64,000 nt of DNA, from assembly GCA_964385615.1 (NCBI GenBank), contig CAYLPP010000003.1, forward strand, positions 11,288 to 75,287, read 5' to 3'. Below the pieces are notes generated by a model. That model was given only the letters and a program-made list of their open reading frames with translations, made no database searches and was not told where the DNA came from. This document shows, piece by piece, positions 1 through 61,566 of the stretch; position 1 is the first letter of the stretch, and each line of letters begins with the position of its first letter. A program made the position numbers and the translations under genes. The DNA comes from an uncultured bacterium. Its GTDB lineage: Bacteria > Omnitrophota > Omnitrophia > Omnitrophales > Aquincolibacteriaceae.

Positions 1-999
1 ATGATTAGCAATTTCAATCGCCCGACCTTCAAGATTACAGAGATAAACATCGAAAATTGTCATCGGCTTGCCGCTTCGCAGCTGTGGTTCGGCAAGCTCA
101 CCACCCTGAGCCTGTCGAATGGGCATCCCAAGCATTTGATTGAAATCACAGTCATACAGCTTGCCGTCCCAACCGACATTGAGCGTGCTCCTGCACATGA
201 GACCTTCTAAAGTTGCGGGATTGAAACTGTTGACCAAGAGTTCCTGATAGGTTTCGTATTGATTAAGGGCTTGAAGATATTTTGCATACCGCGTAATCGG
301 CATATTCGTAATTGTATAAAGACGGTTAAATACAATGCCCCAATCCTCCTGAAGCCTTTCCTTATAATCCCTCTCGAGCCCCATCTGTTCGGGCGGAAGA
401 TGAGGGCCGACGGGGTTATAAACAAGATTCAAAACAAGGCCGGAATCCCGAGATTCCGGCACGCACCCAGGATCTTGACGATCCTGCGTCCGCAGGCCGG
501 AATTTTCTTTTCCATACCCAAGATTATTCAAAAGCTGAAGCCCTTTGATGGATTCATCGAAAGTTCCTTTTCCACGCTGTTTATCTACATTCTCCTGTAA
601 ATAGCATGGGAGTGATGCGACGATTTCCACCTTGTTATCTGCCATAAACTGGCCGAGATCTTCCTGCCCAGGGAGAAAAAGCACCGTCAAATTACAACGG
701 TCAATGACATGAACTCCAAAATTGCGAGCTTCTGTTACGAAATAACGGAAATTCGGATTCATTTCCGGTGCGCCGCCGGTCAAATCAAGTGTTTTGACAC
801 CTGAATTTCTCATATAAGCGACAACGGCTTCGGCAGTCGTCCGATTCATATTCTCTTTTGTCTTTGTCGGCCCAGCCTCCACATGACAGTGCGCACAGGT
901 TAGATTGCAAAGCTTTCCAAGATTGACCTGTAAAATTTCAACGGGACCTTTGGTCAATCGAGCGCCAGCAGACTTGACTTTATCCTGAAAACTTTCCAT
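1..999 (-). CDS. arsS: radical SAM/Cys-rich protein, ArsS-like (arsenosugar biosynthesis); 3' end beyond window start
   Basis: Hand translation from ATG at 999 reading toward position 1 gives MESFQDKVKSAGARLTKGPVEILQVNLGKLCNLTCAHCHVEAGPTKTKENMNRT... with the CxxxCxxC radical-SAM motif. There is no stop before the window edge, so it is absent from the ORF track, which needs an in-window stop. It sits next to arsM. Confidence 0.7.
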   Translation of the reverse strand, partial: MESFQDKVKSAGARLTKGPVEILQVNLGKLCNLTCAHCHVEAGPTKTKENMNRTTAEAVVAYMRNSGVKTLDLTGGAPEMNPNFRYFVTEARNFGVHVIDRCNLTVLFLPGQEDLGQFMADNKVEIVASLPCYLQENVDKQRGKGTFDESIKGLQLLNNLGYGKENSGLRTQDRQDPGCVPESRDSGLVLNLVYNPVGPHLPPEQMGLERDYKERLQEDWGIVFNRLYTITNMPITRYAKYLQALNQYETYQELLVNSFNPATLEGLMCRSTLNVGWDGKLYDCDFNQMLGMPIRQAQGGELAEPQLRSGKPMTIFDVYLCNLEGRAIEIANH

Positions 1000-1005
1000 T
1001 TTGAT

Positions 1006-2151
1006 TTATCCCCCTATCCTTGAAAGCACGAAGAAACTCCCGGCTGATAGAACTGCTGCTATCGGCAGAGTTAAAAGCCATGCACCAAGAATTGAAGTAA
1101 TCACCTTCCAGTTTGCTTTCCCATTCACAAGCCCAATGCCAAACAATGCCCCGCAGGAAACATGAGTCGTTGAAACCGGCATCCCCCATCCTGAAGCAAA
1201 GATCACAAGAATGGCCGTCACAAGATTCGCGGTAAATCCCTGTCCGTGATTCATCGATGTAATTCTGGTGGAAACAGTTTTGGCCACTTTGCGGGCGCCA
1301 AGAATTCCTCCAATCGCCATAACAGAAGCCACCAAAAACATGTTCCATCGCAGCCCCATAGCTCCAGCAGCGACAAGCAACGCTGCGATTTTGGGTGTAT
1401 CGTTGAGCCCCCGGGCAAAACTGACCGCTCCAGCGCTCAGAAAATGGAGGGAATCAAGGATCGTCTGCGCATTGACGCCCAAAAATTTCCCTTCGTAAAT
1501 CTCAATTGCTTTTGCCTGACAACTGGCTTCATTCCCAACAAAAACTTCCGGGATTTTTATTTCTGAAACAGCCATCGTCTTGCCGTTTTCTAGTCCAAGC
1601 TGTACTAGCGGAATCACTTTCTCTCCCACACAAAGACAACTTTTGCGTGTTATCCCAAGAACCTTTCTTGATTGGTGCATTATGAAATAAATAGAAGCTG
1701 TAAAAATAATAGCCAGAAATGGACTGACAATGAGCGGCATGAAAAAGTTTTTACCAAGGGTATTGAATCCAAGCTGCGTGCCAATCGCCATGAATCCCGC
1801 GCCTACAAGCGAACCTGTAAGCCCGTGAGTGGTTGAAATCGGAATACCGAACCTTGCGGCAAACAGCACAGTTAAGCCTGTTCCAATCGCCACAGCAGCA
1901 AGAAATGCCGGATGGCTGATCAAAATATCGGGAACAAGTCCTTTTCCTGTAAAAGTTTTCACTAAGCGAGTCGCAAGGAAGAATGCCGCACCTGAGCCGG
2001 CAAAAGTTGTCACCGTCGCCCAGCTTAAGGCCTTGCGATAATCCGTAGTTCCGCTTCCAAATAATGTTGCTACACCTTTAAAATTGTCGTTTGCGCCGTT
2101 AGCATAGGCTACAAATAAAACAGCCAATGTAACGCCCAATATCCAGATCAT
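1006..2151 (-). CDS. inorganic phosphate transporter, PiT/PHO4 family
   Basis: Multi-TM protein with a GANDNFKGVATLFGSGT motif typical of PiT. The likely start is ATG at 2149-2151 (MIWILG...), which overlaps the arsM stop as TGATG. The track ORF extends upstream to 2253. Confidence 0.7.
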   Translation of the reverse strand: MIWILGVTLAVLFVAYANGANDNFKGVATLFGSGTTDYRKALSWATVTTFAGSGAAFFLATRLVKTFTGKGLVPDILISHPAFLAAVAIGTGLTVLFAARFGIPISTTHGLTGSLVGAGFMAIGTQLGFNTLGKNFFMPLIVSPFLAIIFTASIYFIMHQSRKVLGITRKSCLCVGEKVIPLVQLGLENGKTMAVSEIKIPEVFVGNEASCQAKAIEIYEGKFLGVNAQTILDSLHFLSAGAVSFARGLNDTPKIAALLVAAGAMGLRWNMFLVASVMAIGGILGARKVAKTVSTRITSMNHGQGFTANLVTAILVIFASGWGMPVSTTHVSCGALFGIGLVNGKANWKVITSILGAWLLTLPIAAVLSAGSFFVLSRIGG

Positions 2152-3326
2152 CAGCAACACCCCCCATCCATACAAACCGATTTCATCGAAGATGGCTTTG
2201 TGTATTTTTTCCCTTTTGTTTCGCGAGCATCGCGTTCTTCGGTTCGTCGGCAATCAAAAGGCTTCGCCTTCGCCAACGGAATATCTTTTGACGGCGGTAC
2301 CAAAATAAATTCGTTCTGATACGGATGCTTTGAATAAATCTGAAATGTCTTATCGCAAACCGCCGTCCGGACTCCGCGCTTCAGCACATGCCCGTCATCA
2401 TCAACAACCTGCTTCCAGGGCCCCTTGTAAATCACTGCCTGATTTCTTTCCCAGCAGGGTCCCTCCTTCCCTTTGTAAGCCGTGATCGTCATGGAACGAA
2501 ATTCAATCCCTTGAACAATACGCCAGGGTCTTTCATCCAGTTTCTCGACTCTGACTCCGTAGAATCCTGCTTCTTCAAAAGCTTTGAGAAATTCTTTTTC
2601 CTGAAAAGCGCCGGAGATGCAGCCGCTCCAGAGTTCCGAGTCTTTCTGAAGTTCTTCGGGAACAAACTCATCTGAAACAATATCCGAAATGGCAACCCGT
2701 CCTCCTTTTTTTAAAACTCGGTGCATCTCGCGGAATAAAGCTTTTTTATCCTCAGAACGAACGAGATTCAGAACGCAGTTTGAAACAACGACATCGATCG
2801 ACTCATCTTCAACGAGCGGCGTGCGCCCTTTCACAAGATCTACGGCATCCTCAAAATGCATGAGATCGTCCACCGAATGAATAGGACTTTTTTTAAGTGT
2901 CTCCTCCAATGCCTCCAAATCGGTTTTTAAATCCTGAATCCGGCCGCGCCGGAACTCCACATTGCTCCAACCTATTCTTCCCGCGATTTTTTTTTCATAC
3001 TTGCGGGCAAGTTCAAGCATCGTGGGATTAAAATCCACACCAATCACTTTTCCTCTAGCCCCGACAACCTGGGAGGCGATGTAACAAATCTTTCCTCCTC
3101 CAGAACCCAAATCAAGCACCGTATCCCCTTCCTTAAGAAAGCGGGATGGATCTCCGCAGCCATAATCTTTCTCAAGGATCTCTTGAGGAATGACCTTGAG
3201 GTATTTGGGATCATAGTTTGTGGGACAGCACAAAGCTTCCTCCCGGACTTTGGCGCCCTGCGCGTAGCGCTCACGGACCGCTTGCTCAATGCTGTGATCC
3301 TTCTTTCCATTATTGGATGCTTTCAT
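2151..3326 (-). CDS. arsM: arsenite S-adenosylmethionine methyltransferase ArsM
   Basis: SAM methyltransferase fold (VLDLGSGGG) with a Cys-rich C-terminus (CMDGGCC) and the conserved CCP..YD N-terminus. It is adjacent to arsS. Confidence 0.8.
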   Translation of the reverse strand: MKASNNGKKDHSIEQAVRERYAQGAKVREEALCCPTNYDPKYLKVIPQEILEKDYGCGDPSRFLKEGDTVLDLGSGGGKICYIASQVVGARGKVIGVDFNPTMLELARKYEKKIAGRIGWSNVEFRRGRIQDLKTDLEALEETLKKSPIHSVDDLMHFEDAVDLVKGRTPLVEDESIDVVVSNCVLNLVRSEDKKALFREMHRVLKKGGRVAISDIVSDEFVPEELQKDSELWSGCISGAFQEKEFLKAFEEAGFYGVRVEKLDERPWRIVQGIEFRSMTITAYKGKEGPCWERNQAVIYKGPWKQVVDDDGHVLKRGVRTAVCDKTFQIYSKHPYQNEFILVPPSKDIPLAKAKPFDCRRTEERDARETKGKKYTKPSSMKSVCMDGGCC

Positions 3327-3330
3327 AAAC

Positions 3331-3933
3331 TCACCTCTCCTTATTCGATATTTTTAGTTCGTCTAAATCTTCCAGCTCAGGAAGCAGACAATGCGAAAGT
3401 TCTTCCTCCCGTGTCCATCCAAGCGTGGCCTTTAACACTTCCGGGGTACTCCAAGGAATATTTTCAAAAAGACTTTCGTGAAACTCCTTACATCCGATCA
3501 GGTAATACCCTCCGTCTTTTGCGGGGCCAATGACAACATCGTAAAATTGAAGATTGTCGAACGCCTTTTCAATCACTTCTTTTTTAAGTCCCAATGTGTC
3601 GCTTCCAAGAGCAATCACGGCACAGGCTTCTTCACCAAAAGATTCCTGAAAAGCCTGTGTCAGACGTTCTCCTAAGTCATTTCCCTTCTGAGCCACATAA
3701 TCGGATGCACCTGACAACCATTCTTTGATTTCACTTTCTTTCTCGGGAGGATCAAACATTACGGTAATTTTGAACTCACTGGCGGTAAGTTCTTGAAGAG
3801 TTCTAAAGCCGCTTTCCGCCAATCCTCGATAGGCGTTGGCCGCAGCTTCATTGCCTATAGACTTCGCAAGGCGAGTCTTGACCTTTCCGGGCTCCGGATA
3901 TTTGACAAAATAAAGGACGCATTTATACGCCAT
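3331..3933 (-). CDS. TIGR04282/DUF2064-family protein (arsenosugar-biosynthesis-associated glycosyltransferase-like)
   Basis: DGGYYLIG and IPWST blocks typical of DUF2064. It is translationally coupled to the downstream GT2. Confidence 0.65.
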   Translation of the reverse strand: MAYKCVLYFVKYPEPGKVKTRLAKSIGNEAAANAYRGLAESGFRTLQELTASEFKITVMFDPPEKESEIKEWLSGASDYVAQKGNDLGERLTQAFQESFGEEACAVIALGSDTLGLKKEVIEKAFDNLQFYDVVIGPAKDGGYYLIGCKEFHESLFENIPWSTPEVLKATLGWTREEELSHCLLPELEDLDELKISNKER

Positions 3934-4642
3934 GGGTCATGACCTTGTACCTTTCTCTGAGGGACTCCAAATCCTCACGGAGGATTTTATACCCAAACAT
4001 AATGCGCATATTTTTCAGGATTTGCTTTAATATCCCGGACTCAAAGTAACGCCGGGAGGAAACCGTAACCTTGTCATCAACGATAGCGATTCTCCCCCGC
4101 TTTGAGAGGCATTCTGAAAACATCAGATCTTCCAGAAACGCGACATCCGGGTAGCCGTGCGCCGCGTCAAAAACCGAACGCTGCGCAAATATGGCGTTTG
4201 AACCGACAAGGCACTTCATCATTCCTAAGTAGAAAGTATTCTGAAAAAATACATAAGAATTCATAATCCAATTTGTCGGGAAATATCTCTTTTTAAACCC
4301 GCCTCCGATGAAACCCTGCCCCAGCTTGTCACGGATACGGTCTACCGCATTGCCCGGCAGCCTCATATCCGCATGCACAAAAAGGAAAATATCCGACTTT
4401 GCCTCAAAAGCTCCCAAATTCATTTGCAGTGCACGGTCCGCATAAGCCGTTTCGAAACATCGGACCGACGAAAAATCCCGCCTGATAATTTCACAGGTGC
4501 CGTCTTTTGATCCACCATCCACGGCTATCACTTCATCCGCGCCAAGCGAAAGAAGATGATTTAGCGTGTCGGCAATAAGATTTTTTTCGTTGACCACCGG
4601 GACAATAATGGCAACGCTTGTTTTTTTGTCCATAGCTCCCAT
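3923..4642 (-). CDS. family 2 glycosyltransferase (TIGR04283-like partner of DUF2064)
   Basis: GT2 N-terminus (VAIIVPVVNE ... VDGGSKDGT) and an 11-bp overlap with the DUF2064 gene. Confidence 0.65.
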   Translation of the reverse strand: MGAMDKKTSVAIIVPVVNEKNLIADTLNHLLSLGADEVIAVDGGSKDGTCEIIRRDFSSVRCFETAYADRALQMNLGAFEAKSDIFLFVHADMRLPGNAVDRIRDKLGQGFIGGGFKKRYFPTNWIMNSYVFFQNTFYLGMMKCLVGSNAIFAQRSVFDAAHGYPDVAFLEDLMFSECLSKRGRIAIVDDKVTVSSRRYFESGILKQILKNMRIMFGYKILREDLESLRERYKVMTHGV

Positions 4643-6006
4643 CCTAAAAGAAAATAGAAAACTCCGTATTCAAATAGCTTCACAAAATTGAACGCTTGTC
4701 GCATCCCTTGATACTCGAAATAAAAATCCAAGTAATAGAAAAAAATAAGCCCTGAGAATAAAAGAAAGGCACGTGATGGCGCAAAAACAAGAAACGGAAA
4801 AACCCAGGTGAAGTACCAGGGATTTCCTGTAGGCGCGAGAAAAAAGAGCCCGGCTATTACAACAAGGCTAGCTTTCAGGAAGGCTTCGACATTTTCCCGG
4901 CTTTTCAACCATTGGATGGTTTGAATTGCGAGCGCTGCAAATAAAATACCCACGGTTGCGCGGCTCAACCACTCCGCGTGGTTCGAAAAAGGTTGCACAG
5001 CCAAGAACCAGACTCTTATCAAACCATAAATTCCTGCGTTAACCTGCCATTCCCCAGCAAATCTTCCGAGCCCTTCAAAAAGCGAGGACCCGGCTGAAGC
5101 AAAGGGTAGATAAAGCCCCGTCAATATGGCACCATAAAGCAGACTCCCTTTCACGACTTCTTTAGGCGCGGTTGCCCAAACCCATACACACAGAAGCGGC
5201 ATCAGGACAATAGGAAACAGTTTTATTCCTGACGCGAGAGCCAAGAACGCAAACGCCCATAAAATCTGCTGTCCGATCACTGCCCATACGGTTAATGTCA
5301 GAAATAAGACTGCAAAAACATCCAGATGAAGGCTGTTAGAAAATTCCTTCAGTACAAGAGGAGACCAGGCATACAGCAAAATCCATTCCTGCCGCAACCC
5401 AAGCTTTTTCAACGAGAATGCCAGCGTTATCAAAATGCTAATCTCAGCCAGAAGGATCATGAAACGCCAGCCATCAAGTTTCCAGGGTGATAAAAATTGT
5501 GCCGTCGCAAAAAGCATCTGCGCTAAGGGTGGATAAATCGTTTTGATACCTGCGTGATTGATTTTTTGAAATGTTTCAATAACTTCCGGCGCTGCTTTCT
5601 CGCCTGGAACCCGCTGGGTCCAGAAAGCCTCTTTCGGGGAATGCTCATAAGGGTTCTCACTCTTCAGAACCGTCTGACCATCCCAGACATAGCGATACGG
5701 GTCCGTTTCTTGAATAAGATTTGAGGGAAGAAACGCGATTCTGCATAGAAGACCAATAAGGAGAATCCAAAAAACAGCTCTCTGGTCACTTTTAAATGCT
5801 CTCGGAAGTCTCCTGACATACTCCAGTGCCGCAAAATAAAGTCCAAAAGTCACGAATTCTAAAATGAGAAACGAAATAATCGGCCGCTGAGCATGTCCCA
5901 TTCCGAAGACAAAGGATTTACTTACCCAGGATACGCCTATCTGCGTAAGAAGGATGAATACCCCAAAAACAAAAATCGGATTTTTTAAAATTCTATTCCA
6001 ATTCAT
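4561..6006 (-). CDS. polytopic membrane protein, putative GT-C-type glycosyltransferase (DUF2029-like)
   Basis: Many TM helices and a glycosylation context. The likely start is MNWNRILKNP at 6006; the track ORF extends to 6108. Confidence 0.4.
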   Translation of the reverse strand: MNWNRILKNPIFVFGVFILLTQIGVSWVSKSFVFGMGHAQRPIISFLILEFVTFGLYFAALEYVRRLPRAFKSDQRAVFWILLIGLLCRIAFLPSNLIQETDPYRYVWDGQTVLKSENPYEHSPKEAFWTQRVPGEKAAPEVIETFQKINHAGIKTIYPPLAQMLFATAQFLSPWKLDGWRFMILLAEISILITLAFSLKKLGLRQEWILLYAWSPLVLKEFSNSLHLDVFAVLFLTLTVWAVIGQQILWAFAFLALASGIKLFPIVLMPLLCVWVWATAPKEVVKGSLLYGAILTGLYLPFASAGSSLFEGLGRFAGEWQVNAGIYGLIRVWFLAVQPFSNHAEWLSRATVGILFAALAIQTIQWLKSRENVEAFLKASLVVIAGLFFLAPTGNPWYFTWVFPFLVFAPSRAFLLFSGLIFFYYLDFYFEYQGMRQAFNFVKLFEYGVFYFLLGWELWTKKQALPLLSRWSTKKILLPTR

Positions 6007-6010: not shown

Positions 6011-7303
6011 TTATTCCTCACCGGAAATCTGTCCTGATTGGCAAATCTCTGCAAACTGTTTACCGGAATCCCTGATTTTCCGGGATTGAGTCGCGTAATC
6101 AACTTCAATCAAGCCAAACCGGGGCCCATAACCTTCGGCCCACTCGTAATTATCAAGCAAGGACCAGTAGAGATAGCCCATGACTTGGGCTCCTTCTTTC
6201 ATGGCCTTTGCCAATTGAATCAAATGACTTTTGACAAACTCAAAACGCTCTTCATCCCGCTCAAGACAAACACCATTTTCTGTAATAAGAAGCGGCAGCT
6301 TATATTGAGAAAATTCTTTAACCAATTGATAGAGCCCTTGAGGATAAATTTCCCAGGAGAGAAAATTTCTTTTACCAACACTTCTATGATGCTTCAAGGT
6401 GCAAATGTCACCGAAGATCGCCGGGATTTGAAACCCTTCGTTGTGAACAAAATCACGCGTGTAATAATTTAAGCCGACAAAATCAAGCGTCTTTGCCTTA
6501 GGAAGCTGGATACGAAAAAGCCCGGGATAAAAAATTCGCCCGCGGATCAGGGCTTTAATAAAAAGATGATTGAACATTGCATTCCTCAAACTTACCGATA
6601 GCCGGTCTTTCCAGGATTTCGGCGAACACGGCGTAAATATCAGCACATGTTTGGCGATGCCTACTTGAGCGGAAGGGCGTTTGAGCTGACGACTTCCCCC
6701 TTTAATGGTGTCGTAGGCCAGGACATGTCCTTTAAGTAAATGTGACAAGGCTTTCAATGTTTTTTCATAGGACTTTTCTCCGGGAGGCCACTCCCCCATG
6801 AGATAGCCCTTAAAAACATAAGCCACGGGTTCATTGAGAGTGATCCAATACCGGATATGTTCTCCAAGTTCCTCGACTACTTTCCGGACATAGCGTGCAA
6901 ACAAATCAGGCGTTCCTTCAAACAGCCAGCCGCCTTTTTGAGAGAGCCAAACCGGTAATGTGAAGTGGTGTAATGTGACGATGGGTTCAAGCCCAAGGGA
7001 CCGCAGAGATTCAATCACCTCACGGTAATGAATGATGGCTTCATCATTAAACTGGCCTTCATGAGGCTCAATACGGCTCCATTCGAGAGAAAACCGATGG
7101 GCCTTATGATTCAACGATTTTGCCAGAGCAAAATCCTCACGGAACTGATTCCAATGATCACAGGCCTTCCCGGATTTTTCTTTAACCTTTCCGTTTTGCT
7201 CCCACTGCCACCAGTCGTTATTCACGTTATTTCCTTCGACTTGATGCGAAGAAGTCGCGGCACCCCACATAAAGTTTTTAGGAAATTCAAAGTTTGTCGT
7301 CAT
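6011..7303 (-). CDS. GH1 family beta-glucosidase
   Basis: LNEP acid/base and ITENG nucleophile motifs, with the N-terminal FMWGAATSSHQVEG signature. Confidence 0.85.
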   Translation of the reverse strand: MTTNFEFPKNFMWGAATSSHQVEGNNVNNDWWQWEQNGKVKEKSGKACDHWNQFREDFALAKSLNHKAHRFSLEWSRIEPHEGQFNDEAIIHYREVIESLRSLGLEPIVTLHHFTLPVWLSQKGGWLFEGTPDLFARYVRKVVEELGEHIRYWITLNEPVAYVFKGYLMGEWPPGEKSYEKTLKALSHLLKGHVLAYDTIKGGSRQLKRPSAQVGIAKHVLIFTPCSPKSWKDRLSVSLRNAMFNHLFIKALIRGRIFYPGLFRIQLPKAKTLDFVGLNYYTRDFVHNEGFQIPAIFGDICTLKHHRSVGKRNFLSWEIYPQGLYQLVKEFSQYKLPLLITENGVCLERDEERFEFVKSHLIQLAKAMKEGAQVMGYLYWSLLDNYEWAEGYGPRFGLIEVDYATQSRKIRDSGKQFAEICQSGQISGEE

Positions 7304-7311: not shown

Positions 7312-7623
7312 TTATCCGTTCTTATCCTCACAATTTTCCGGCATCAAAAAATAGGCTTCGATCCCTTGTATGGCTTTCTCCGAATCTTCGCCACGGACTT
7401 CAATACGCAGCCGCGATTTCCACGCAGCCCCCAAAGCCAGCAATCCCAAAATACTCTTCCCATCGACGGCAAGTTCGCCCTTGATGATTTGAATCCTTGA
7501 GCGAAACTGACGCGCAAAAAGAATAAAACGTGTCGCGGTTCTCGCATGTAACCCCAACCGGCATGGCATGGTCACCTCCGTACTCCGCACTGCGCTCACT
7601 TTCTGCGGCACAAGCTCCATCAT
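7312..7623 (-). CDS. ptsH: HPr-family phosphocarrier protein
   Basis: GLHARTATRF active-site His region. The protein is about 100 aa. Confidence 0.7.
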   Translation of the reverse strand: MMELVPQKVSAVRSTEVTMPCRLGLHARTATRFILFARQFRSRIQIIKGELAVDGKSILGLLALGAAWKSRLRIEVRGEDSEKAIQGIEAYFLMPENCEDKNG

Positions 7624-7665: not shown

Positions 7666-8220
7666 TCATACCTTATGTCTGCTTCCGCTTGTTTCCAATT
7701 CAACACCCAGGGCATCCGCGACCCGGTTGATAAAACTGAATAGTGCCACAACGGATGTGGCTTCAAGAATCTCGCTATCGGACCATCCAGCCTCCTTGAG
7801 CCCTACGATGTCCGAATCCGTCACTTTGTAGGCGTTTTTCGTGACCTTCTCCGCATACTCTAACAACCGAAGCGTTTTTTTATCAACCCCGGCCTTTCGA
7901 TAATCTTCTCCAATCGTGTTTGCCATCTCCGGATCGACCCCATACTGCTTCATAAAGTTAACGTGATGCGACAAGCAATAGCCGCATTGATTGATTTTTG
8001 ATGTCAGAGCAGCGATCATTTCCTTTACGGAACGAGGAAGCTTTGTTTCCGCAACCATGATGGTTTGAAAAATTTTCATATGCGCCTCAAAAAGTTCCGG
8101 CCAAATTGAAAAAATCTTCACCACGTTTGGCACAGCGCCCATCTGGCTCTTCATCATGCCGTAAACTTGTCCAATCATTCCTTCCGCTTGATTTTCTTCA
8201 ATAATGGATATACGGTTCAT
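7666..8220 (-). CDS. carboxymuconolactone decarboxylase/AhpD-like peroxidase-related protein
   Basis: CGYCLSHH (CxxCxxH) AhpD core motif. The start at 8220 is preceded by an AGGAGG ribosome-binding site; the track ORF extends to 8262. Confidence 0.6.
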   Translation of the reverse strand: MNRISIIEENQAEGMIGQVYGMMKSQMGAVPNVVKIFSIWPELFEAHMKIFQTIMVAETKLPRSVKEMIAALTSKINQCGYCLSHHVNFMKQYGVDPEMANTIGEDYRKAGVDKKTLRLLEYAEKVTKNAYKVTDSDIVGLKEAGWSDSEILEATSVVALFSFINRVADALGVELETSGSRHKV

Positions 8221-8405
8221 GGTTCCTCCTGATTTAAAAAGGCACTTTAATTTGATGCCCACATTTGGGACAAATCAAAACACGGTATTTCCCTGTAGAG
8301 TCGTTCACCACCCTTTCTTGCAGCACGCCTTCACTCACACAATTCAGGTTCATGCACCCCACTAAACTTATTGGCAGGAGCACAAAAAGTATCCTCAAGC
8401 ATAAG

Positions 8406-9839
8406 TCACGCAAATGGAATCAATCTCCTTGCCAGCTTCGGGAACCATCCCTTGAAGAGCTTTTCACGGTAATACTGATCACACGCCCGTTTCACCGCCT
8501 GTGAAAGCGTCGGGTAAACGTGAATCATTTGAGAAATCTTCGTGATCGGCAGCTTGGCTTTCATGGCGAGAGTAAACTCATGCAAAAGTTCTCCAGCGTG
8601 AGGTCCCAAAAGATGCGCTCCCAAAATCTGGTTCTTCTGATCACAAACCAGTTTGATAAAACCATGCCCTTCGCCCTCGATGATGGCGCGATCCACTTCA
8701 TCAAAACGAAACCGGAAAACTTGCACATTCTTTTCCCCGTATTCTTTCTTAGCTTCAGCTTCCGTCATTCCGACACGGCCAAGCTCGGGATCGCTGTAAG
8801 TGACCCAGGGAACAACGCGATAATCGGCCTTACGGTTCATGAACGGAAAGAGAGCATTCGAGACAACGATTCCTGCCTGATACTCCGCAGTATGCGTAAA
8901 AGGAAAAGGCCCGCATACATCTCCGCAAGCAAAGATATGCTTTTGGTTGGTCCTCATATCCAATCCTACTTTGATTCCTTTTTTATCGTCGTATTCAACA
9001 CCGGCCAGGCTGAGGTTCAATCCATCTACATTGGGGGCTCGGCCAATGGAAATCATGAGTTCTTCGGCTTCAAAATGCTTAATCCCCTCACCAGAGCATT
9101 CCGCCACAACAACTTTTTTACCTTGCGCTGTCTTCTGGATCTCCTTGACCTCGGTGCAGGTGCGGATTTCGATACCTTCCGTTTTAAGAATTTTTTCAAG
9201 ATCATCCGCAAGTTCCTTGTCTTCACGAGGCAGAACCTGCCCCATTTTTTCAATCACGGTGACCTTGGAACCCAAGCGGGCGAAAACCTGTGAAAATTCA
9301 AGACCAATGGGACCTGCACCCAAAATCACGATGGACTGCGGGAGGTGGTCCAGTTTGAGCGCGGTCACATTCGTAAGAGCCCCCGATTCTTTGAGCCCTG
9401 GAATCGGAAGCAGAATCGGACGCGAGCCCGTGGCAATCAGAAACTTGCGGCCTCGAAGCTGACGGTTGCCCACTTCAAATGTATGAGAATCCAGAAAATG
9501 TCCGGTCCCAAAAATAACTTCTACGCCCATTTTACGGAACCGCTCGGGGTCATCATTTTTTCCGATGCGTGCCTGCACGCCGCGCATTCTTTCCATCACT
9601 TTTTTGAAATCCACCTTGTAATCACCTTCGATCCCAAACTCTTCGGAACGCTTAAAAAGAGAGGCGACCTTGGCCGACTGAACCAATCGCTTCGTCGGAA
9701 CACAACCCCAATGCAGGCAATCCCCGCCCAGAGATTCTTTTTCAACAAGCGCCACCTTTGCCCCCAGTTGCGAAGCACCGCTCGCTGTGACAAGCCCTCC
9801 GACTCCGCCTCCGATAATGACCAGATCATACTTTTCCAT
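8406..9839 (-). CDS. class I pyridine nucleotide-disulfide oxidoreductase (dihydrolipoyl dehydrogenase / MerA-like, lacking the C-terminal CC pair)
   Basis: DLVIIGGGVGG FAD motif and a GGDCLHWGCVPTK redox-active disulfide. The start is MEKYDL at 9839. Confidence 0.75.
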   Translation of the reverse strand: MEKYDLVIIGGGVGGLVTASGASQLGAKVALVEKESLGGDCLHWGCVPTKRLVQSAKVASLFKRSEEFGIEGDYKVDFKKVMERMRGVQARIGKNDDPERFRKMGVEVIFGTGHFLDSHTFEVGNRQLRGRKFLIATGSRPILLPIPGLKESGALTNVTALKLDHLPQSIVILGAGPIGLEFSQVFARLGSKVTVIEKMGQVLPREDKELADDLEKILKTEGIEIRTCTEVKEIQKTAQGKKVVVAECSGEGIKHFEAEELMISIGRAPNVDGLNLSLAGVEYDDKKGIKVGLDMRTNQKHIFACGDVCGPFPFTHTAEYQAGIVVSNALFPFMNRKADYRVVPWVTYSDPELGRVGMTEAEAKKEYGEKNVQVFRFRFDEVDRAIIEGEGHGFIKLVCDQKNQILGAHLLGPHAGELLHEFTLAMKAKLPITKISQMIHVYPTLSQAVKRACDQYYREKLFKGWFPKLARRLIPFA

Positions 9840-10506
9840 AACGCGCCCCCTGAATTCGTTTATAAATGGCTGGTAAGAAAGAAATGAGAACAAGCAACAA
9901 ACTTGCGGCAAGAAGATTCAGAAAAGCTTTCTGATTGGCTCCTTGGACGCCCTGCAAAAGAGCATCCGCAAAGTAGGTGTAAATAAAGGTGCCGGGCAGC
10001 ATGCCTAAAAAAGATCCCAAAAAATAATCCCGGTATTTTACCGAAGACAGACCCGCGCCGAAATTCAGTCCATTGAATGGAACAACCGGAATCAGACGCA
10101 GGCGAAAGATGGTCTTGAATCCGGAATTCTGAATTCCTCTATCAAAGTCCGCAAGTTTTCCATTTTTAAGCAATCCTTGAATAAAATCCCGTCCCAAATA
10201 CCGCGCTGTAAAAAAAGCGAGGCTCGCTCCGAAGTTAGCCGCAAGCACGTTATAAACCGTGCCCCAAAATACTCCGAACACTGCACCGCCCGTGAGTGTC
10301 AGCAAAGATCCCGGCAGCGCGATCACGCAACCAATGCCATAGATGAGAATGAAAACAACCGGCCCCCACCATTCCTGTCTTATCGTTTGGAAGAAGGAAA
10401 GGATACTGTCTTTGGAAACAACCTGCGCCAGAGGAGTAAATCGGAAGATGACTCCGGCCATAACGAGGACAGCCATAAAGACAGCAAATTTCAGTTTTTT
10501 ATCCAT
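9826..10506 (-). CDS. DedA/TVP38/TMEM64 family membrane protein
   Basis: SNARE-associated Golgi-protein-like TM pattern. This family is commonly paired with MerA-like flavoproteins. Confidence 0.7.
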   Translation of the reverse strand: MDKKLKFAVFMAVLVMAGVIFRFTPLAQVVSKDSILSFFQTIRQEWWGPVVFILIYGIGCVIALPGSLLTLTGGAVFGVFWGTVYNVLAANFGASLAFFTARYLGRDFIQGLLKNGKLADFDRGIQNSGFKTIFRLRLIPVVPFNGLNFGAGLSSVKYRDYFLGSFLGMLPGTFIYTYFADALLQGVQGANQKAFLNLLAASLLLVLISFLPAIYKRIQGARYGKV

Positions 10507-10808: not shown

Positions 10809-11603
10809 TCAGCTCCGCCTTTCATTGAGACTCCAGTCATAGCTGAGCCACTCCATTTTGGAGTTCCCGGGAATTGAACGGGCAATACTTTCGGGGACAT
10901 ACTTTTTGATGAATGGGACAATCCCTCCAGTTTGTTCAAAGTCCTTCCGGAACCATTTAAAAATCGGTGACAGATAAAGCGTGTTCTTGGACTTGTCATA
11001 TCTGAATTTTTCTGGAGTGGCTAAAAACTGCCTGACTTGATCATCCAACTGCCCGTCCAAAAGCTCCGCACGGTACGGTTCCTCCCGCAGCACAGGACAC
11101 CCAATGGAAGCACAGACCAACGCAAAGTGAATCCTCGGTTCTTTGAATTGCTTTCTCAGAATCTCGTGCTCAATCTTACCAAGACTCGTTTTTTCTCCCA
11201 GCAGCATAAAGACAGGGCGGTCCCAGACATCCGGAATTTGCTGAATGCTGTTTTCAGGAAAAGCCAGGGCTTTCCAATTCAACCCTTTCTTCAAGGGATA
11301 AAATTGGACCACCGACAGAACCGCTCCCACGTTATAAGCATTCAGCCAAAATGCGATCTTTTGCCTCTCTGTCCAGGTTTCATATTCATCTTTTGTAACT
11401 TTCCCTATTACTTGATAGGCGTCAAGCAATCCAACCTGATTCGCCTTTAGCTTCGAATAATTGACCCGTCCTCCACTCGCATATTTATTTAGAAGCTGGT
11501 CCCATAAAGAATACTGATGATCAAAACCCGACGCCCCATAGAGAAAGGTATTTTGTGTTAAAAAAAAGAATGCCATGGTGAGAATAAGGCCTTTACGAAA
11601 CAC
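10809..11603 (-). CDS. DUF547 domain protein
   Basis: IAFWLNAYN block typical of DUF547, with an N-terminal signal peptide. Confidence 0.7.
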   Translation of the reverse strand: MFRKGLILTMAFFFLTQNTFLYGASGFDHQYSLWDQLLNKYASGGRVNYSKLKANQVGLLDAYQVIGKVTKDEYETWTERQKIAFWLNAYNVGAVLSVVQFYPLKKGLNWKALAFPENSIQQIPDVWDRPVFMLLGEKTSLGKIEHEILRKQFKEPRIHFALVCASIGCPVLREEPYRAELLDGQLDDQVRQFLATPEKFRYDKSKNTLYLSPIFKWFRKDFEQTGGIVPFIKKYVPESIARSIPGNSKMEWLSYDWSLNERRS

Positions 11604-59583: not shown

Positions 59584-60525
59584 CTAAAAAAGAAAGTTAA
59601 ACAAATATCCCGTAAAAATAATAGCCAGAGTAGTCACGCCAAAAAAAATAGCGATAAGCGGTAATCGTATCACCCTTCTGAGCATGATGGCTTCGGGTAA
59701 GCTTAGCCCCACAATTGCCATGGTAAACGCAAGGGCAGTTCCAATCGGGACTCCTTTTTGGAATAGAACCACGGCAATTGGCACAATCGCCGCGCAGCTG
59801 CCATACATCGGCACACCAAGAAGGGTTGCGATCGGCACAGAAAAAATTCCGGCCTTATTCAGAATCGATTGAATTGCTTCTTGAGGAATGTAATTATGGA
59901 TAATGGCTCCAACTCCGACTCCAACTAATACCCACACCCAGATTTTATGCACGATCGATTTTGCTTCATTCAAGCCGAATGCTATCCGTTTTAACATGCC
60001 TCCGTGGAAAGACTTTTCACTGGCAAGAGTCCCTTCCGTTAAATCAGTCACAAGGTATTTCTCCAAATGCAAGGCACCCAAAATAGCGCCGATCACCACC
60101 CCGATCAATATGCCGCTCAACACATACGCAGCGGTAATTTCACCCCCAAAAAATCCGAGCATCAAAACGATGAGGTATTCATTAATCAACGGCGATGTAA
60201 TTAGAAATGAGAAAGCAACGCCGAGAGGAATCCCAGCCCGGAGAAAGCTGATAAAAATCGGGATTGAGGAACAAGAACAAAAAGGCGTTACAGCCCCAAA
60301 AATCGAAGCATAGAGGTAACTACTCTTCTTCGAACTGAGCCACCCGCGAAGTTTTTGTTGCGGTATGAAGGTTCTTAAAAAACCAATGGCTGTGATCATT
60401 CCAAAAAGAAGCAGTATGATTTTTATTGAATCATAAATAAAAAAATCAACAACTCCGCCCAATTTGGATTCGGGCGTAAACTTCAATACGGAATAAACCA
60501 GCCAATCGACAATTACTTGCAGCAT
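59584..60525 (-). CDS. arsP: DUF318 permease, ArsP-like organoarsenical efflux permease
   Basis: [10 protein letters not shown] motif with the vicinal Cys pair characteristic of ArsP. Eight to ten TM helices. It sits in the ars operon. Confidence 0.65.
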
Positions 60526-60713
60526 GAGCTCGAATCCGAAGCGCTTTTATCATCTCCGCCACAGCACGGTTTACTTTTAGATTTTTCTTCCATTTTTTTA
60601 TCCAGCTTGTCTATAAGATTTCCAAAGAAACCTTTTTTCTTAGGTTTTTCATCCCGCTTCTCTTTTTCCATAAATCCCCCTTCTAAACTTTCTGTTTGAT
60701 CGTCGAAACCCAC
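60513..60713 (-). CDS. small Lys/Glu-rich protein with two vicinal Cys pairs
   Basis: ...[22 protein letters not shown]-terminus. It lies between arsC and arsP and overlaps both. Confidence 0.4.
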
Positions 60714-61120
60714 TTTTCGATCATTTCATTTATTGCATCACGAACCCGGCGCGTTTTATCTAACTTTTCTTCCCAAGTCCCTTGAAAGGACGACGGATCT
60801 TCAAAGCTCCATTGTAATTTCTGCAAAGCCCCCGGGTAAATCGGGCATCTTTCACTACTTGCCTGATCACAAACAGCTATGACATAGTTGTAAGTCCTGC
60901 CTTGTCTGAAGAGATCAAACGCTCCCTGCGTTTTCTTCCCAGAGATATCAATCCCGATTTCATTCATAGCAGCAACAGCAAGAGGATTTAATACTCCGGG
61001 CTCCAAACCAGCGCTTTGCACATCAAAAGCGTCTCCGCCCAAGCGATTAAGAAGTGCCTCTGCCATCTGACTTCTAGCAGAATTATGCACGCAAACAAAC
61101 AGAACTCTGATTTTATCCAT
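60683..61120 (-). CDS. arsC: arsenate reductase ArsC (LMW-PTP/thioredoxin-coupled type)
   Basis: [14 protein letters not shown]-loop and a downstream Cys in [10 protein letters not shown]. Confidence 0.8.
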
Positions 61121-61565: not shown

Positions 61566-61566
61566 A

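What the first reader, a model, noticed from the sequence alone, without database searches (positions are those of the whole stretch)
1..4642. Organoarsenical (arsenosugar-type) biosynthesis cluster with an embedded PiT transporter translationally coupled to arsM
ArsS (radical SAM, CNLTCAHCH) and ArsM are the known pair for the 5'-deoxy-5'-dimethylarsinoyl-adenosine route. The DUF2064/TIGR04282-like and GT2/TIGR04283-like pair downstream matches the families named arsenosugar biosynthesis glycosyltransferases. A PiT phosphate/arsenate carrier is inserted between arsS and arsM with a TGATG stop/start overlap to arsM. This suggests dedicated uptake of arsenate (or export or uptake of a phospho-arsenical) as part of the pathway. 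A GT-C-like membrane protein and a GH1 glycosidase follow. The cluster appears here in a denitrifier-like background rather than a cyanobacterium. A separate ars operon with arsP (methylarsenite efflux) lies at 59.6-63 kb, and ArsM's methylarsenite product is ArsP's substrate.
Basis: partly seen in the sequence, partly recalled or inferred. Interest (0 to 1): 0.55.

Follow-up and report, generated by a model that had tools for sequence, protein, structure and literature searches.

The report
Arsenic gene cluster with PiT transporter
An uncultured groundwater bacterium (Omnitrophota) carries the known arsenic-methylating and arsenosugar-starting enzyme pair with a phosphate/arsenate-type membrane carrier wedged between them, and that carrier turns out to be a conserved, cysteine-marked subfamily that travels with these arsenic genes in several phyla, which points to an undescribed arsenic-linked transporter.

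Summary
On the minus strand lie ArsS (999..1, cut by the window edge; TIGR04167 381.7 bits, cutoff 300), a PiT/PHO4 carrier (2151..1006), ArsM (3326..2151), a TIGR04282 protein and a GT2. The arsM stop and PiT start overlap as TGATG.

Corrections:
- ArsM is below every NCBIfam cutoff, but its arsenic-binding cysteines align with CmArsM.
- The GT2 is a paralogue (168 bits, cutoff 182). The true TIGR04283 gene probably lies beyond the window start.
- The cluster extends to about 11.6 kb.
- The host is Omnitrophota.

The PiT is not incidental. Of 16 PiT-subfamily loci with at least 4 kb on both flanks, 12 carry ArsS and ArsM, always on the same strand, in four gene orders and with two ArsM lineages. 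Only 5 of 80 ArsS loci carry the PiT.

The subfamily keeps the full TmPiT phosphate-binding site and adds a near-invariant CxC…C triad in the cytoplasmic loop. It also occurs fused to periplasmic DUF547.

The TGATG coupling is lineage-specific: the nearest relatives have a 74-aa DUF2582 gene at that junction.

The substrate and transport direction are untested. Arsenate/phosphate entry tied to the pathway is my best guess (about 0.4).

Verdict: a new variant of a known kind, of moderate interest.

The parts
1..999 (-). arsS, radical SAM enzyme; about 17 C-terminal residues lie beyond the window start
   Evidence: TIGR04167 381.7 bits (cutoff 300). Pfam Radical_SAM and DUF3641. CX3CX2C motif at nt 909..886..
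445..501 (-). 57-nt in-frame insertion in arsS (19 aa), absent from the nearest relative; a second 39-nt insertion lies at 85..123
   Evidence: Alignment with the L089 ArsS. A 10-nt perfect direct repeat, AGGCCGGAAT, occurs at 437-446 and 494-503, with internal inverted repeats. There is a single copy in the window.
1006..2151 (-). PiT/PHO4-family carrier, 381 aa, of a subfamily with a Cys triad
   Evidence: PF01384 213.9 bits. Foldseek match to 6L85 at TM 0.71. The Pi-2Na site residues N21/D22, S106/T107/T108, N250/D251 and S327/T328/T329 are conserved. C172, C174 and C211 are kept in 86-87 of 88 members.
2149..2153 (-). TGATG overlap of the arsM stop codon and the PiT start codon
   Evidence: Relatives L088, L090 and L170 carry a 74-aa DUF2582 ORF here.
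2151..3326 (-). arsM-like As(III) SAM methyltransferase with a C-terminal Cys-rich tail (CMDGGCC)
   Evidence: NF040538 376.5 bits (cutoff 500). CmArsM phmmer E-value 1.5e-37, with C57/C184/C236 aligned to C72/C174/C224..
3331..3933 (-). DUF2064 / TIGR04282 family protein
   Evidence: TIGR04282 191.9 bits (cutoff 134); PF09837 114.5 bits..
3923..4642 (-). GT2 glycosyltransferase, a paralogue of TIGR04283 ('GT2a')
   Evidence: TIGR04283 168 bits (cutoff 182). The orthologous GT2a genes in L002 and L006 score 129 and 152 bits, whereas the second GT2b genes there score 220.7 and 221.3 bits.
4561..6006 (-). polytopic membrane protein, probably a GT-C glycosyltransferase (GT87 / MptA_B-like); its 3' end overlaps the GT2 start by 73-82 nt
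   Evidence: It has no Pfam hit of its own. The 86%-identical orthologue in L170 has PF26314 on record. A 29%-identical homologue (E-value 9e-49) in L007 has GT87. An E100-x-D102 motif is invariant.
6011..7303 (-). GH1 glycoside hydrolase
   Evidence: PF00232 299.6 bits. TIGR03356 323.8 bits (cutoff 478.5). NEP157 and ENG342 are present..
7312..7623 (-). HPr-family phosphocarrier protein
   Evidence: TIGR01003 60.7 bits (cutoff 47.9). It is present at the same position in L170.
7666..8262 (-). AhpD-like / CMD peroxidase-related protein with a CGYC motif
   Evidence: TIGR01926 128.4 bits (cutoff 81.8). It lies directly upstream of the PiT in L100, L104, L105 and L120. An ArsM/AhpD fusion family, NF041537, exists.
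8406..9911 (-). class-I flavoprotein disulfide reductase (CLHWGC motif); likely start near 9839
   Evidence: Pyr_redox_2 220 bits. NF004991 512 bits (cutoff 620).. It occurs near 18 of 80 ArsS loci and 18 of 80 PiT loci.
9826..10506 (-). DedA / VTT-domain membrane protein
   Evidence: PF09335 100.6 bits. It occurs near 17 of 80 ArsS loci and 17 of 80 PiT loci.
10809..11603 (-). DUF547 protein with an N-terminal signal-like segment and a CASIGC motif; predicted periplasmic partner of the PiT
   Evidence: PF04784 84.7 bits. PiT-DUF547 fusion proteins P0134 and P0203 exist, with no extra hydrophobic segment after the last PiT helix. It occurs near the PiT in 9 of 16 well-flanked loci.
59584..63031 (-). 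separate classical ars operon: ArsR, ACR3, two ArsC-like genes and an ArsP-type permease
   Evidence: TIGR00832 457.9 bits. NF033788 90.6 bits. TIGR02691 141.6 and 111.2 bits (both below the 174.3 cutoff). PF03773 203 bits with a VTPFCSCS motif..

Best explanation
Positions 1 to about 11,600 (minus strand) are the Omnitrophota version of a widespread ArsS-centred gene system. The window edge cuts it inside arsS.

Inferred from family membership:
- ArsM methylates As(III) to dimethylarsenite.
- ArsS adds the 5'-deoxyadenosyl group of SAM to dimethylarsenite, giving 5'-deoxy-5'-dimethylarsinoyl-adenosine.
- The TIGR04282 protein, the GT2 paralogues, the GT-C protein, DedA and GH1 tailor or glycosylate this product, partly at the periplasmic face.
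- The flavoprotein disulfide reductase and the AhpD-like CxxC protein supply thiol reducing power.

Shown here:
- The PiT between arsM and arsS is an integral, conserved member of this system.
- It belongs to a distinct PiT subfamily that keeps the complete phosphate/two-sodium site of TmPiT, so its substrate should be a four-oxygen tetrahedral oxyanion such as phosphate or arsenate.
- Its third cation site is remodelled: H236 and N309 replace TmPiT Q243 and D327.
- It carries a near-invariant CxC...C triad in the cytoplasmic TM5-TM6 loop.
- It partners with, and is sometimes fused to, a periplasmic DUF547 domain.

My committed reading, which is inference: this carrier is the arsenate/phosphate entry route tied to the pathway. 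Arsenate that enters with phosphate is reduced and handed directly to ArsM and ArsS. The cytoplasmic Cys triad, which has the geometry of a three-thiolate As(III) site, senses As(III) and throttles the carrier.
For: Conservation of the PiT in the cluster:
- The arsM-PiT-arsS trio or the whole cluster is conserved in L002/L003, L004/L005, L006, L088-L093, L095 and L097.
- 39 of 80 PiT-subfamily loci carry ArsS and/or ArsM, always on the same strand. Of 33 loci with at least 1.3 kb on both flanks, 12 have them within 300 bp and 16 within 6 kb. Of 16 loci with at least 4 kb on both flanks, 12 have both.
- The linkage survives rearrangement into four gene orders. It holds with two divergent ArsM lineages, about 60% and about 30% identical to the window protein.
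- It is found in named genomes of Omnitrophota, Deltaproteobacteria, Nitrospirae, Verrucomicrobia and Planctomycetota.
- The association is asymmetric: only 5 of 80 ArsS loci have the PiT. The PiT subfamily therefore depends on the ArsM/ArsS context, not the reverse.

Fusion evidence:
- L169 encodes the system as fused proteins: [rSAM-ArsM] [PiT-DUF547] [DedA] [reductase] [GT-C] [GT2-TIGR04282-TIGR04283].

Protein features:
- The Pi-2Na residues are conserved in 85-88 of 88 members, and the triad C172/C174/C211 in 86-87 of 88, including a member only 35% identical.
- 112 of the 150 best 50%-identity cluster representatives keep the triad.
- Topology: TmPiT has its N- and C-termini outside the cell. 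DUF547 has a signal-like N-terminus, and in the fusions it follows the last PiT helix with no extra hydrophobic segment. This places the triad loop in the cytoplasm.
- The fold is confirmed by the match to 6L85 at TM 0.71.
Against: - No experiment or sequence feature fixes the substrate, its selectivity or the direction of transport.
- TmPiT binds arsenate about 100-fold more weakly than phosphate, so an intact site does not imply good arsenate transport.
- The triad loop was modelled at pLDDT below 50, and no coordinates were available, so a three-thiolate site is not demonstrated.
- Close PiT homologues occur without ArsM or ArsS: L001 (89% identical), L007, and about a quarter to a half of the adequately flanked loci.
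- Classical arsenate-handling genes (ArsC, ACR3, ArsR) are rarely adjacent, at 1 to 3 of 80 loci. That weakens a simple arsenate-to-arsenite-to-ArsM relay encoded in one cluster.
- The 80 loci are the closest relatives of the window's PiT, so they are not phylogenetically independent.
- The roles of TIGR04282, the GT2 paralogues, GT-C, GH1, DedA and DUF547 are names or guesses, not tested functions.
Confidence: 0.4

Rival explanations
1. Phosphate supply under arsenic stress. The PiT is a phosphate-selective importer co-expressed with arsenic-transforming enzymes so that the cell keeps acquiring phosphate when arsenate competes. No arsenical is its physiological substrate.
For: - The phosphate-binding residues are fully conserved.
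- TmPiT discriminates phosphate from arsenate about 100-fold.
- There is precedent. Phosphate transport genes are a recurrent part of arsenic islands (PMC3834237). A pitA gene sits in the ars cluster next to arsQML in Burkholderia gladioli (PMC8552651).
Against: - This reading does not explain the near-invariant cytoplasmic Cys triad, the DUF547 fusion, or why the tie is to ArsM/ArsS rather than to ArsC/ACR3 operons, which are adjacent in only 1 to 3 of 80 loci.
- It does not explain the asymmetry of 12 of 16 PiT loci with ArsM/ArsS against 5 of 80 ArsS loci with the PiT.
Confidence: 0.2
2. Exporter, or carrier of a pathway-specific arsenical. By analogy with ArsQ in arsQML and with ArsP, ArsJ and ArsK, the PiT (with DUF547) removes a pentavalent methylated oxyanion such as MAs(V) or DMAs(V), or a trivalent species captured by the CxC motif. 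Alternatively it imports environmental methylarsenicals for ArsM and ArsS.
For: - The permease + ArsM + radical SAM architecture mirrors arsQML, whose authors note unrelated permeases next to other arsL genes.
- The tightest partner is ArsM. In 20 loci arsM lies directly upstream of the PiT, and in 10 of these no ArsS was found in the sequence held for that locus, which is often short.
Against: - All eight hydroxyl and carboxylate ligands that contact the four phosphate oxygens in TmPiT are invariant. Methyl-substituted arsenicals should need a partly hydrophobic pocket.
- Characterised PiT-family members are importers (my own knowledge).
- The CxC lies in a soluble loop, not in the translocation path, according to the TmPiT alignment.
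Confidence: 0.2
3. The larger system is not primarily about arsenic. The ArsS-family enzyme, TIGR04282/TIGR04283, GT-C, DedA, the reductase, DUF547 and the PiT would form an envelope or redox system acting on another substrate (for example selenium, tellurium or a glycan), with ArsM an optional add-on.
For: - Only 21 of 80 ArsS loci have ArsM nearby, while TIGR04282-like and GT2 genes are each present in 30 and the reductase in 18.
- In L007 the PiT sits among DsbD, DsbA, thioredoxin, DsbH, GT2 and GT87 genes with no ArsM or ArsS.
- In L169 the radical SAM partner fused to ArsM is not of the TIGR04167 family.
- ArsS-family and ArsM-family selenoprotein variants exist.
- Phosphate transporters are reported to take up selenite (PMC9312934).
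Against: - ArsS activity on dimethylarsenite is experimentally established in Synechocystis, as cited.
- The window's ArsM keeps the As(III)-binding cysteines.
- 12 of 16 well-flanked PiT loci have both ArsM and ArsS.
Confidence: 0.12
4. Incidental neighbour. The PiT is a housekeeping phosphate carrier that happens to lie between arsM and arsS.
For: - Genes are co-directional for about 50 kb in this window, so shared strand alone means little.
- L001 has an 89%-identical PiT in an unrelated context.
Against: The linkage recurs across phyla, gene orders and ArsM lineages, and in a fused-gene version of the system.
Confidence: 0.03

Closest known systems
ArsM/ArsS pair of Synechocystis sp. PCC 6803 (first steps of arsenosugar biosynthesis)
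   Same: - A TIGR04167-family radical SAM enzyme above the trusted cutoff, with CX3CX2C and DUF3641.
- An adjacent ArsM-type methyltransferase that keeps the As(III)-binding cysteines.
   Different: - The host is an Omnitrophota bacterium.
- ArsM is of the long type closest to NF040538 and scores only 144 bits on the arsenosugar-ArsM model NF038099 (cutoff 400).
- A PiT carrier lies between the two genes, and a large accessory set surrounds them.
- No product is known.
Conserved neighbourhood TIGR04167 / TIGR04282 / TIGR04283, named 'arsenosugar biosynthesis' in NCBIfam
   Same: - ArsS and a TIGR04282 member are present and pass their cutoffs.
- A TIGR04283-like GT2 is adjacent.
- 30 of 80 ArsS loci show the same TIGR04282-like and GT2 partners.
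   Different: - The window's GT2 is a sub-cutoff paralogue. The member that passes the cutoff sits after arsS in relatives.
- The PiT, DUF547, DedA, reductase, AhpD-like protein, GT-C and GH1 are not part of the named set.
arsQML arsinothricin cluster of Burkholderia gladioli GSRB05 (PMC8552651)
   Same: - A three-gene logic of permease + ArsM + radical SAM enzyme in one operon.
- The window's ArsM scores best on the model built for that ArsM, NF040538.
   Different: - The radical SAM enzyme here is ArsS (5'-deoxyadenosyl transfer), not ArsL (aminocarboxypropyl transfer).
- The permease is PiT-family, not GntP-family ArsQ.
- ArsM scores 376.5 bits, below the 500 cutoff.
PiT/SLC20 family: TmPiT (PDB 6L85), E. 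coli PitA, B. subtilis CysP
   Same: - The fold matches (TM 0.71).
- Both GxND and PxSTT motif pairs, and all Pi and Na1/Na2 ligands, are present.
   Different: - The third sodium site is changed: H236 and N309 replace Q243 and D327.
- The first motif reads GANDNFKG.
- A conserved 60-residue loop carries the CxC...C triad.
- Some members are fused to DUF547.
- It scores far below the PitA cutoff (64.8 bits against 800) and the CysP cutoff (68.7 against 400).
Phosphate-transport genes in arsenic islands (pst/pho with aio genes, PMC3834237; pitA beside arsR-aioAB in B. gladioli, PMC8552651)
   Same: A phosphate/arsenate transporter gene is genetically linked to arsenic-transforming genes.
   Different: - In those cases the partner is arsenite oxidation or the classical ars genes. 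Here the partners are ArsM and ArsS, and classical ars genes are rarely adjacent.
- The Cys-triad subfamily and the DUF547 link are not described in the papers I could search.

Membership tests
ArsS (TIGR04167) | Whole-protein score at or above the curated cutoff of 300 bits | tested here: met
   381.7 bits despite the truncated C-terminus. Orthologues in L002 and L004 score 440 and 433 bits.
ArsS (TIGR04167) | Radical SAM CX3CX2C cluster motif plus the C-terminal Cys-rich DUF3641 domain | tested here: met
   C31/C35/C38 are present. PF04055 36.6 bits and PF12345 137.3 bits. The final HCFGCTAGxGSSC segment lies outside the window.
ArsS (TIGR04167) | Transfers 5'-deoxyadenosyl from SAM to dimethylarsenite | not testable with these tools
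   This needs an enzyme assay.
ArsM (As(III) SAM methyltransferase) | Score above an NCBIfam ArsM cutoff | tested here: not met
   NF040538 376.5 bits (cutoff 500). NF008823 205.7 bits (cutoff 263). NF038099 144.4 bits (cutoff 400)..
ArsM (As(III) SAM methyltransferase) | Conserved As(III)-binding cysteines equivalent to CmArsM C44, C72, C174 and C224 | tested here: met
   C57, C184 and C236 align with C72, C174 and C224. A C33-C34 pair lies where C44 is expected but falls outside the local alignment. The cysteine roles are taken from PMC6138428.
TIGR04282 (DUF2064) | Score at or above the cutoff of 134 bits | tested here: met
   191.9 bits.
TIGR04283 (GT2) | Score at or above the cutoff of 182 bits | tested here: not met
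   168 bits. It is a paralogue of the GT2b genes that score 220.7 and 221.3 bits in L002 and L006.
PiT / PHO4 (PF01384, SLC20) | Pfam gathering score and the PiT fold | tested here: met
   213.9 bits (cutoff 33.7). Foldseek match to 6L85 with E-value 4e-12 and TM 0.71.
PiT / PHO4 (PF01384, SLC20) | The two GxND and two PxSTT motifs that bind Pi, Na1 and Na2 | tested here: met
   N21/D22, S106/T107/T108, N250/D251 and S327/T328/T329 are present, and are conserved in 85-88 of 88 subfamily members.
PiT / PHO4 (PF01384, SLC20) | Third sodium site (TmPiT T29, Q243, S247, D327) | tested here: not met
   The equivalents here are T29, H236, A240 and N309. H236 and N309 are invariant or nearly so.
PiT / PHO4 (PF01384, SLC20) | Transports inorganic phosphate | not testable with these tools
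   This needs uptake assays. It scores far below the PitA equivalog cutoff (64.8 bits against 800).
GT-C glycosyltransferase (GT87 / MptA_B) | Pfam hit to a GT-C family | tested here: inconclusive
   The window protein has no hit at E-value up to 5, and its profile finds nothing relevant in the PDB. The 86%-identical orthologue has PF26314 on record, and a 29%-identical homologue has PF09594 GT87.
GH1 | Pfam score and the catalytic NEP / (T)ENG glutamates | tested here: met
   299.6 bits, with NEP157 and ENG342 present. The beta-glucosidase equivalog TIGR03356 is not met (323.8 bits against 478.5).
ArsP (gene at 59584-60525) | ArsP_1 domain and the vicinal cysteine pair in a TPFCSC motif | tested here: met
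   PF03773 203.2 bits. VTPFCSCS occurs at residues 80-87. The significance of the motif comes from my own knowledge.

The most novel reading that the evidence does not exclude
The Cys-triad PiT subfamily, together with its periplasmic DUF547 partner, is a new ars-type transport module dedicated to arsenicals. It would either be an arsenate (or methylated arsenate) carrier gated by As(III) or MAs(III) binding to a cytoplasmic three-cysteine site, or a carrier that feeds or clears the ArsM/ArsS pathway. This would add a PiT-fold member to the list of arsenic permeases (ArsB, Acr3, ArsP, ArsJ, ArsK, ArsQ). It would also imply that the ArsS system works partly across the membrane, via DUF547, DedA and GT-C.
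Probability: 0.35. Interest if true: 0.7.

Novelty: new variant of a known kind. Interest (0 to 1): 0.55.

Why it matters
Each new arsenic permease (ArsP, ArsJ, ArsK, ArsQ) has opened a branch of arsenic biochemistry, and the steps after ArsS in arsenosugar formation are still unknown.

This work yields a compact, testable candidate set:
- a PiT-fold carrier with a conserved cysteine triad;
- a periplasmic DUF547 partner;
- a dedicated thiol-reducing pair, a DedA protein and a GT-C protein.

All of these repeatedly travel with ArsM and ArsS in uncultured groundwater and anammox lineages. In one organism they are welded into fusion proteins.

If the carrier handles arsenate or methylated arsenate, it links phosphate acquisition to organoarsenical synthesis in anoxic aquifers, where arsenic mobility matters for drinking water. 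It would also give DUF547 its first functional context.

Public annotation currently calls these genes only 'methyltransferase' and 'inorganic phosphate transporter' or 'anion permease'.

Tried and rejected
- **Structure of the Cys-triad loop.** The AF2 model is good for the membrane core (mean pLDDT 78) but below 50 for residues 170-216. No coordinates are returned, so Cys-Cys distances could not be measured.
- **GT-C assignment for the membrane protein.** It has no Pfam hit even at E-value up to 5. A profile search against the PDB gave only a spurious hit. I fell back on orthologue annotations.
- **Literature on a PiT in arsM/arsS clusters and on DUF547.** Searches found nothing relevant. 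The library is incomplete, so absence there is weak evidence of novelty.
- **Is the 57-nt insertion in arsS a repeated element?** There is only one copy in the window.
- **Would classical ars genes (ArsC, ACR3, ArsR, ArsP) co-localise with the PiT?** They do so in only 1 to 3 of 80 loci. I dropped the idea of a self-contained arsenate-to-arsenite-to-ArsM relay operon.
- **Is the rSAM-ArsM fusion in L169 an ArsS-ArsM fusion?** Its radical SAM half is SPASM / Rv1681-like, not TIGR04167.
- **Incidental-neighbour reading.** Rejected.
- **One context look-up failed.** The look-up for P0097 (Lentisphaerae) got no answer from the server and was not repeated.

Full report
**1. What is in the sequence**

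All genes of the finding lie on the minus strand. In order of transcription they are:

| Gene | Coordinates |
|---|---|
| DUF547 | 11603..10809 |
| DedA/VTT | 10506..9826 |
| Class-I flavoprotein disulfide reductase | about 9839..8406 |
| AhpD-like CMD protein | 8262..7666 |
| HPr | 7623..7312 |
| GH1 | 7303..6011 |
| 481-aa polytopic membrane protein | 6006..4561 |
| GT2 | 4642..3923 |
| DUF2064 | 3933..3331 |
| ArsM-like methyltransferase | 3326..2151 |
| PiT/PHO4 carrier | 2151..1006 |
| ArsS | 999..1 |

From GH1 to ArsS the gaps between genes are 4 to 8 nt or overlaps. ArsS runs off the window and lacks about 17 C-terminal residues. The arsM stop (2153..2151) and the PiT start (2151..2149) overlap as TGATG. 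That ATG coincides with the N-termini of 69 homologues.

**2.

- ArsS passes: TIGR04167 381.7 bits against a cutoff of 300, with CX3CX2C and DUF3641 present.
- TIGR04282 passes: 191.9 bits against 134.
- PHO4 passes: 213.9 bits.
- The GT2 does not pass TIGR04283: 168 bits against 182.
- ArsM is below every NCBIfam ArsM cutoff. Its best hit is the arsinothricin-type model NF040538 at 376.5 bits (cutoff 500). The arsenosugar-type model NF038099 gives only 144.4 bits (cutoff 400).

ArsM is still a credible As(III) methyltransferase. It matches the crystallised CmArsM at 1.5e-37, and C57, C184 and C236 align with the arsenic-binding C72, C174 and C224 (cysteine roles from PMC6138428).

The GT2 is a paralogue. 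The orthologous clusters L002 and L006 each hold two GT2 genes. The one upstream of DUF2064 scores 129 to 152 bits. A second one, after arsS, scores 220.7 and 221.3 bits. The true TIGR04283 member of this organism therefore probably lies just beyond window position 1, as in L002 and L089.

**3. Host and background**

The ArsM is 96% identical to a protein of Omnitrophica bacterium RIFCSPLOWO2_01_FULL_45_10b. That organism's contig shows the same gene array. The best named PiT and ArsS relatives are also Omnitrophota.

The 'denitrifier-like' impression rests on a qNOR-type NorB (54327-56600) and a molybdopterin oxidoreductase. A non-cyanobacterial ArsS is not unusual. At least 594 relatives were found among GTDB species genomes, and the 80 kept span many phyla.

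The separate ars operon at 59.6-63 kb is real. It holds ArsR, ACR3, two ArsC-like genes, and an ArsP_1 permease with the TPFCSCS motif.

**4. Is the PiT an incidental neighbour? No.**

Starting from the PiT:
- Context look-ups of homologues showed the whole cluster with arsM-PiT-arsS in a groundwater contig (L002/L003, PiT 77% identical).
- They showed GT2-DUF2064-arsM-PiT-arsS in another Omnitrophota contig (L006, 67%).
- They showed a bare arsM-PiT-arsS trio in the anammox planctomycete Candidatus Loosdrechtia (L004/L005, 63%).

A metagenome scan returned 80 loci whose PiT is 51-96% identical to the window's.
- 39 of the 80 carry ArsS and/or ArsM, always on the PiT's strand.
- Of 33 loci with at least 1.3 kb on both sides, 12 have them within 300 bp and 16 within 6 kb.
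- Of 16 loci with at least 4 kb on both sides, 12 have both ArsS and ArsM. Nine have the reductase, 8 DedA, 9 DUF547, 9 DUF2064 and 9 the GT2.

The gene order varies:
- arsM-PiT-arsS in 10 loci;
- arsM-arsS-PiT and related upstream orders in 8;
- PiT followed by arsS-arsM in 6;
- arsM-PiT with no ArsS found in the sequence held, in 10.

The adjacent ArsM belongs to two divergent lineages, about 60% and about 30% identical to the window's. Both are ArsM-like by NCBIfam.

Starting from ArsS, only 5 of the 80 best loci from GTDB species genomes carry the PiT. They come from Omnitrophota, Deltaproteobacteria, Nitrospirae, Verrucomicrobia and Bythopirellula. By comparison, 21 carry ArsM, 30 each carry a TIGR04282-like gene and a GT2, 18 the reductase and 17 DedA.

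The association is therefore asymmetric. This PiT subfamily usually comes with ArsM/ArsS, whereas ArsS usually comes without it.

There are counter-examples. An 89%-identical PiT sits in an unrelated context (L001). A Scalindua PiT sits among DsbD, DsbA, thioredoxin, DsbH, GT2 and GT87 genes (L007).

**5. Fusion evidence**

Two 50%-identity cluster representatives of the PiT family (P0134, P0203) are PiT-DUF547 fusions.

The contig of P0203 (L169) encodes the whole system in fused form:
- an 862-aa radical-SAM/ArsM protein;
- the PiT-DUF547 protein;
- DedA;
- the reductase;
- a GT-C protein;
- a 709-aa GT2-TIGR04282-TIGR04283 protein (219.7 and 286.3 bits on the two models).

This is independent evidence that the PiT, DUF547, ArsM and the TIGR0428x proteins work together. 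The radical SAM half of that fusion is SPASM / Rv1681-like, not ArsS.

**6. What kind of PiT it is**

The AF2 model (mean pLDDT 78) matches only TmPiT, at TM 0.71.

Using the phmmer alignment to 6L85 and the published site (PMC7413737):
- Every ligand of phosphate, Na1 and Na2 is present: N21/D22, S106/T107/T108, N250/D251 and S327/T328/T329.
- These are conserved in 85-88 of 88 subfamily members.
- The third sodium site is remodelled. TmPiT Q243 and D327 become H236 and N309, both invariant or nearly so.

The protein has only four cysteines.
- Three of them, C172-x-C174 and C211, lie in the TM5-TM6 loop. They are kept in 86-87 of 88 members, including one only 35% identical.
- 112 of the 150 best cluster representatives keep them.
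- The fourth, C333, alternates with valine.

Topology was inferred in two ways. First, TmPiT has both termini outside the cell, which puts the TM5-TM6 loop inside. Second, the stand-alone DUF547 has a signal-like N-terminus, and in the fusions DUF547 follows the last PiT helix with no further hydrophobic segment. This places the PiT C-terminus in the periplasm, and hence the triad loop in the cytoplasm.

Three cytoplasmic thiols are the usual way proteins bind As(III). That is my own knowledge of ArsR, ArsD and ArsM; the loop itself was modelled with low confidence, so it remains a hypothesis.

**7. How it most likely works**

Shown:
- the composition of the cluster;
- the membership scores;
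- the conserved linkage;
- the intact oxyanion site;
- the cysteine triad;
- the fusions.

Inferred from family knowledge:
- ArsM makes dimethylarsenite.
- ArsS converts it to 5'-deoxy-5'-dimethylarsinoyl-adenosine (roles as cited).
- The reductase (CLHWGC) and the AhpD-like protein (CGYC) re-reduce the ArsM disulfide cascade. This is supported only by the existence of an ArsM/AhpD fusion family, NF041537.

Weak inference: the GT2 paralogues, DedA, GT-C and GH1 act on a lipid-linked sugar at the periplasmic face.

For the PiT, I commit to a phosphate/arsenate-type oxyanion carrier that is the arsenate entry route tied to this pathway, with As(III) feedback through the triad (confidence about 0.4).

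The rivals are:
- a phosphate-only supply role (0.2);
- an exporter or importer of methylated arsenicals (0.2);
- a system whose real substrate is not arsenic (0.12);
- coincidence (0.03).

The invariance of all eight oxygen-contacting ligands argues against methylated substrates. The rarity of ArsC, ACR3 and ArsR next to these loci (1 to 3 of 80) argues against a simple detoxification operon. It also means regulation is probably by the Crp-family or ECF-sigma genes seen upstream.

**8. The TGATG coupling**

The closest relatives (L088, L090, L170; 87-90% nucleotide identity) have 222 extra bases at this junction. These encode a 74-aa DUF2582 winged-helix protein (44.6 bits). Its start overlaps the arsM stop as TGATG, and its stop overlaps the PiT start as ATGA.

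The window lacks exactly the stretch between two ATGATC sequences. The direct arsM-PiT overlap is therefore a by-product of a deletion, or of an insertion in the sister lineage. More distant clusters have 3 to 232 nt between the two genes. Tight linkage is general; this particular overlap is not.

**9. Novelty and score**

- ArsS, ArsM and TIGR04282/TIGR04283 are known kinds, and the NCBIfam models already name them.
- New to the literature I could search are a cysteine-triad PiT subfamily bound to ArsM/ArsS, its DUF547 partner, and the wider accessory set.
- Precedents exist for phosphate transporters in arsenic gene islands (PMC3834237) and for permease-ArsM-radical SAM operons (PMC8552651).
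- I rate it a new variant of a known kind, with interest 0.55.

Noticed in passing
window 2149-2153; L088 1884-2108; L090 about 6892-7118; L170 11182-11409: The nearest relatives carry a 74-aa DUF2582 winged-helix gene between arsM and the PiT. It is chained to both by overlapping stop and start codons (TGATG and ATGA). The window lacks it exactly between two ATGATC sequences, which suggests a microhomology deletion.
   Followed up: yes
window 445-501 and 85-123 (inside arsS): There are two in-frame insertions (19 aa and 13 aa) relative to the closest ArsS. The first is flanked by a perfect 10-nt direct repeat, AGGCCGGAAT (437-446 and 494-503), and contains inverted repeats. It has no other copy in the window. 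Its effect on the enzyme is unknown.
   Followed up: partly
L169 2237-12516 (Logan SRR22387919); L168: This is a fused-gene version of the whole system: rSAM(SPASM)-ArsM (862 aa), PiT-DUF547 (633 aa), DedA, the reductase, GT-C, and GT2-TIGR04282-TIGR04283 (709 aa). Here a radical SAM enzyme that is not ArsS is welded to ArsM.
   Followed up: partly
window 10809-11603 (DUF547) and proteins P0134, P0203: DUF547, a domain of unknown function, has a conserved HFALVCASxGCP (CxxxxC) motif and a predicted periplasmic location. It is fused to the PiT C-terminus in two cluster representatives. This is the first functional context I could find for bacterial DUF547.
   Followed up: partly
window 7312-7623 and 47797-49722: An HPr phosphocarrier gene sits inside the cluster between the AhpD-like gene and GH1, and is conserved there in L170, L090 and L095. 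A PtsI (enzyme I) gene lies 40 kb away. What a PTS phosphocarrier would do here is unexplained.
   Followed up: no
window 4561-4642: The 3' end of the GT-C gene and the 5' end of the GT2 gene overlap by 73-82 nt, which is unusually long. The overlap is kept in L170 (8694-8766).
   Followed up: no
window 1-51771: By a simple longest-ORF call, about 50 consecutive genes all lie on the minus strand, with persistently negative GC skew. Shared orientation alone is therefore not evidence of an operon here.
   Followed up: no
window 11959-14275: Relative to L170, three genes (DUF1348, an alpha/beta hydrolase and a TetR regulator) are inserted between the Crp-family regulator and DUF547.
   Followed up: no
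L001 10001-11149: A PiT 89% identical to the window's sits in a quite different neighbourhood (Na/H exchanger, ECF sigma, TonB receptor), with no ArsM or ArsS within 10 kb. It may be a second copy or a transferred gene.
   Followed up: no
window 60683-61637: The classical ars operon has two tandem, overlapping thioredoxin-type ArsC-like genes. Both score below the TIGR02691 cutoff (111 and 142 bits against 174).
   Followed up: no
window 18530-20050: A 506-aa ORF has only faint ParB-HTH and recombinase zinc-ribbon similarity. It may be a remnant of a mobile element between the thioredoxin/DsbH genes and an alginate-export-like porin.
   Followed up: no
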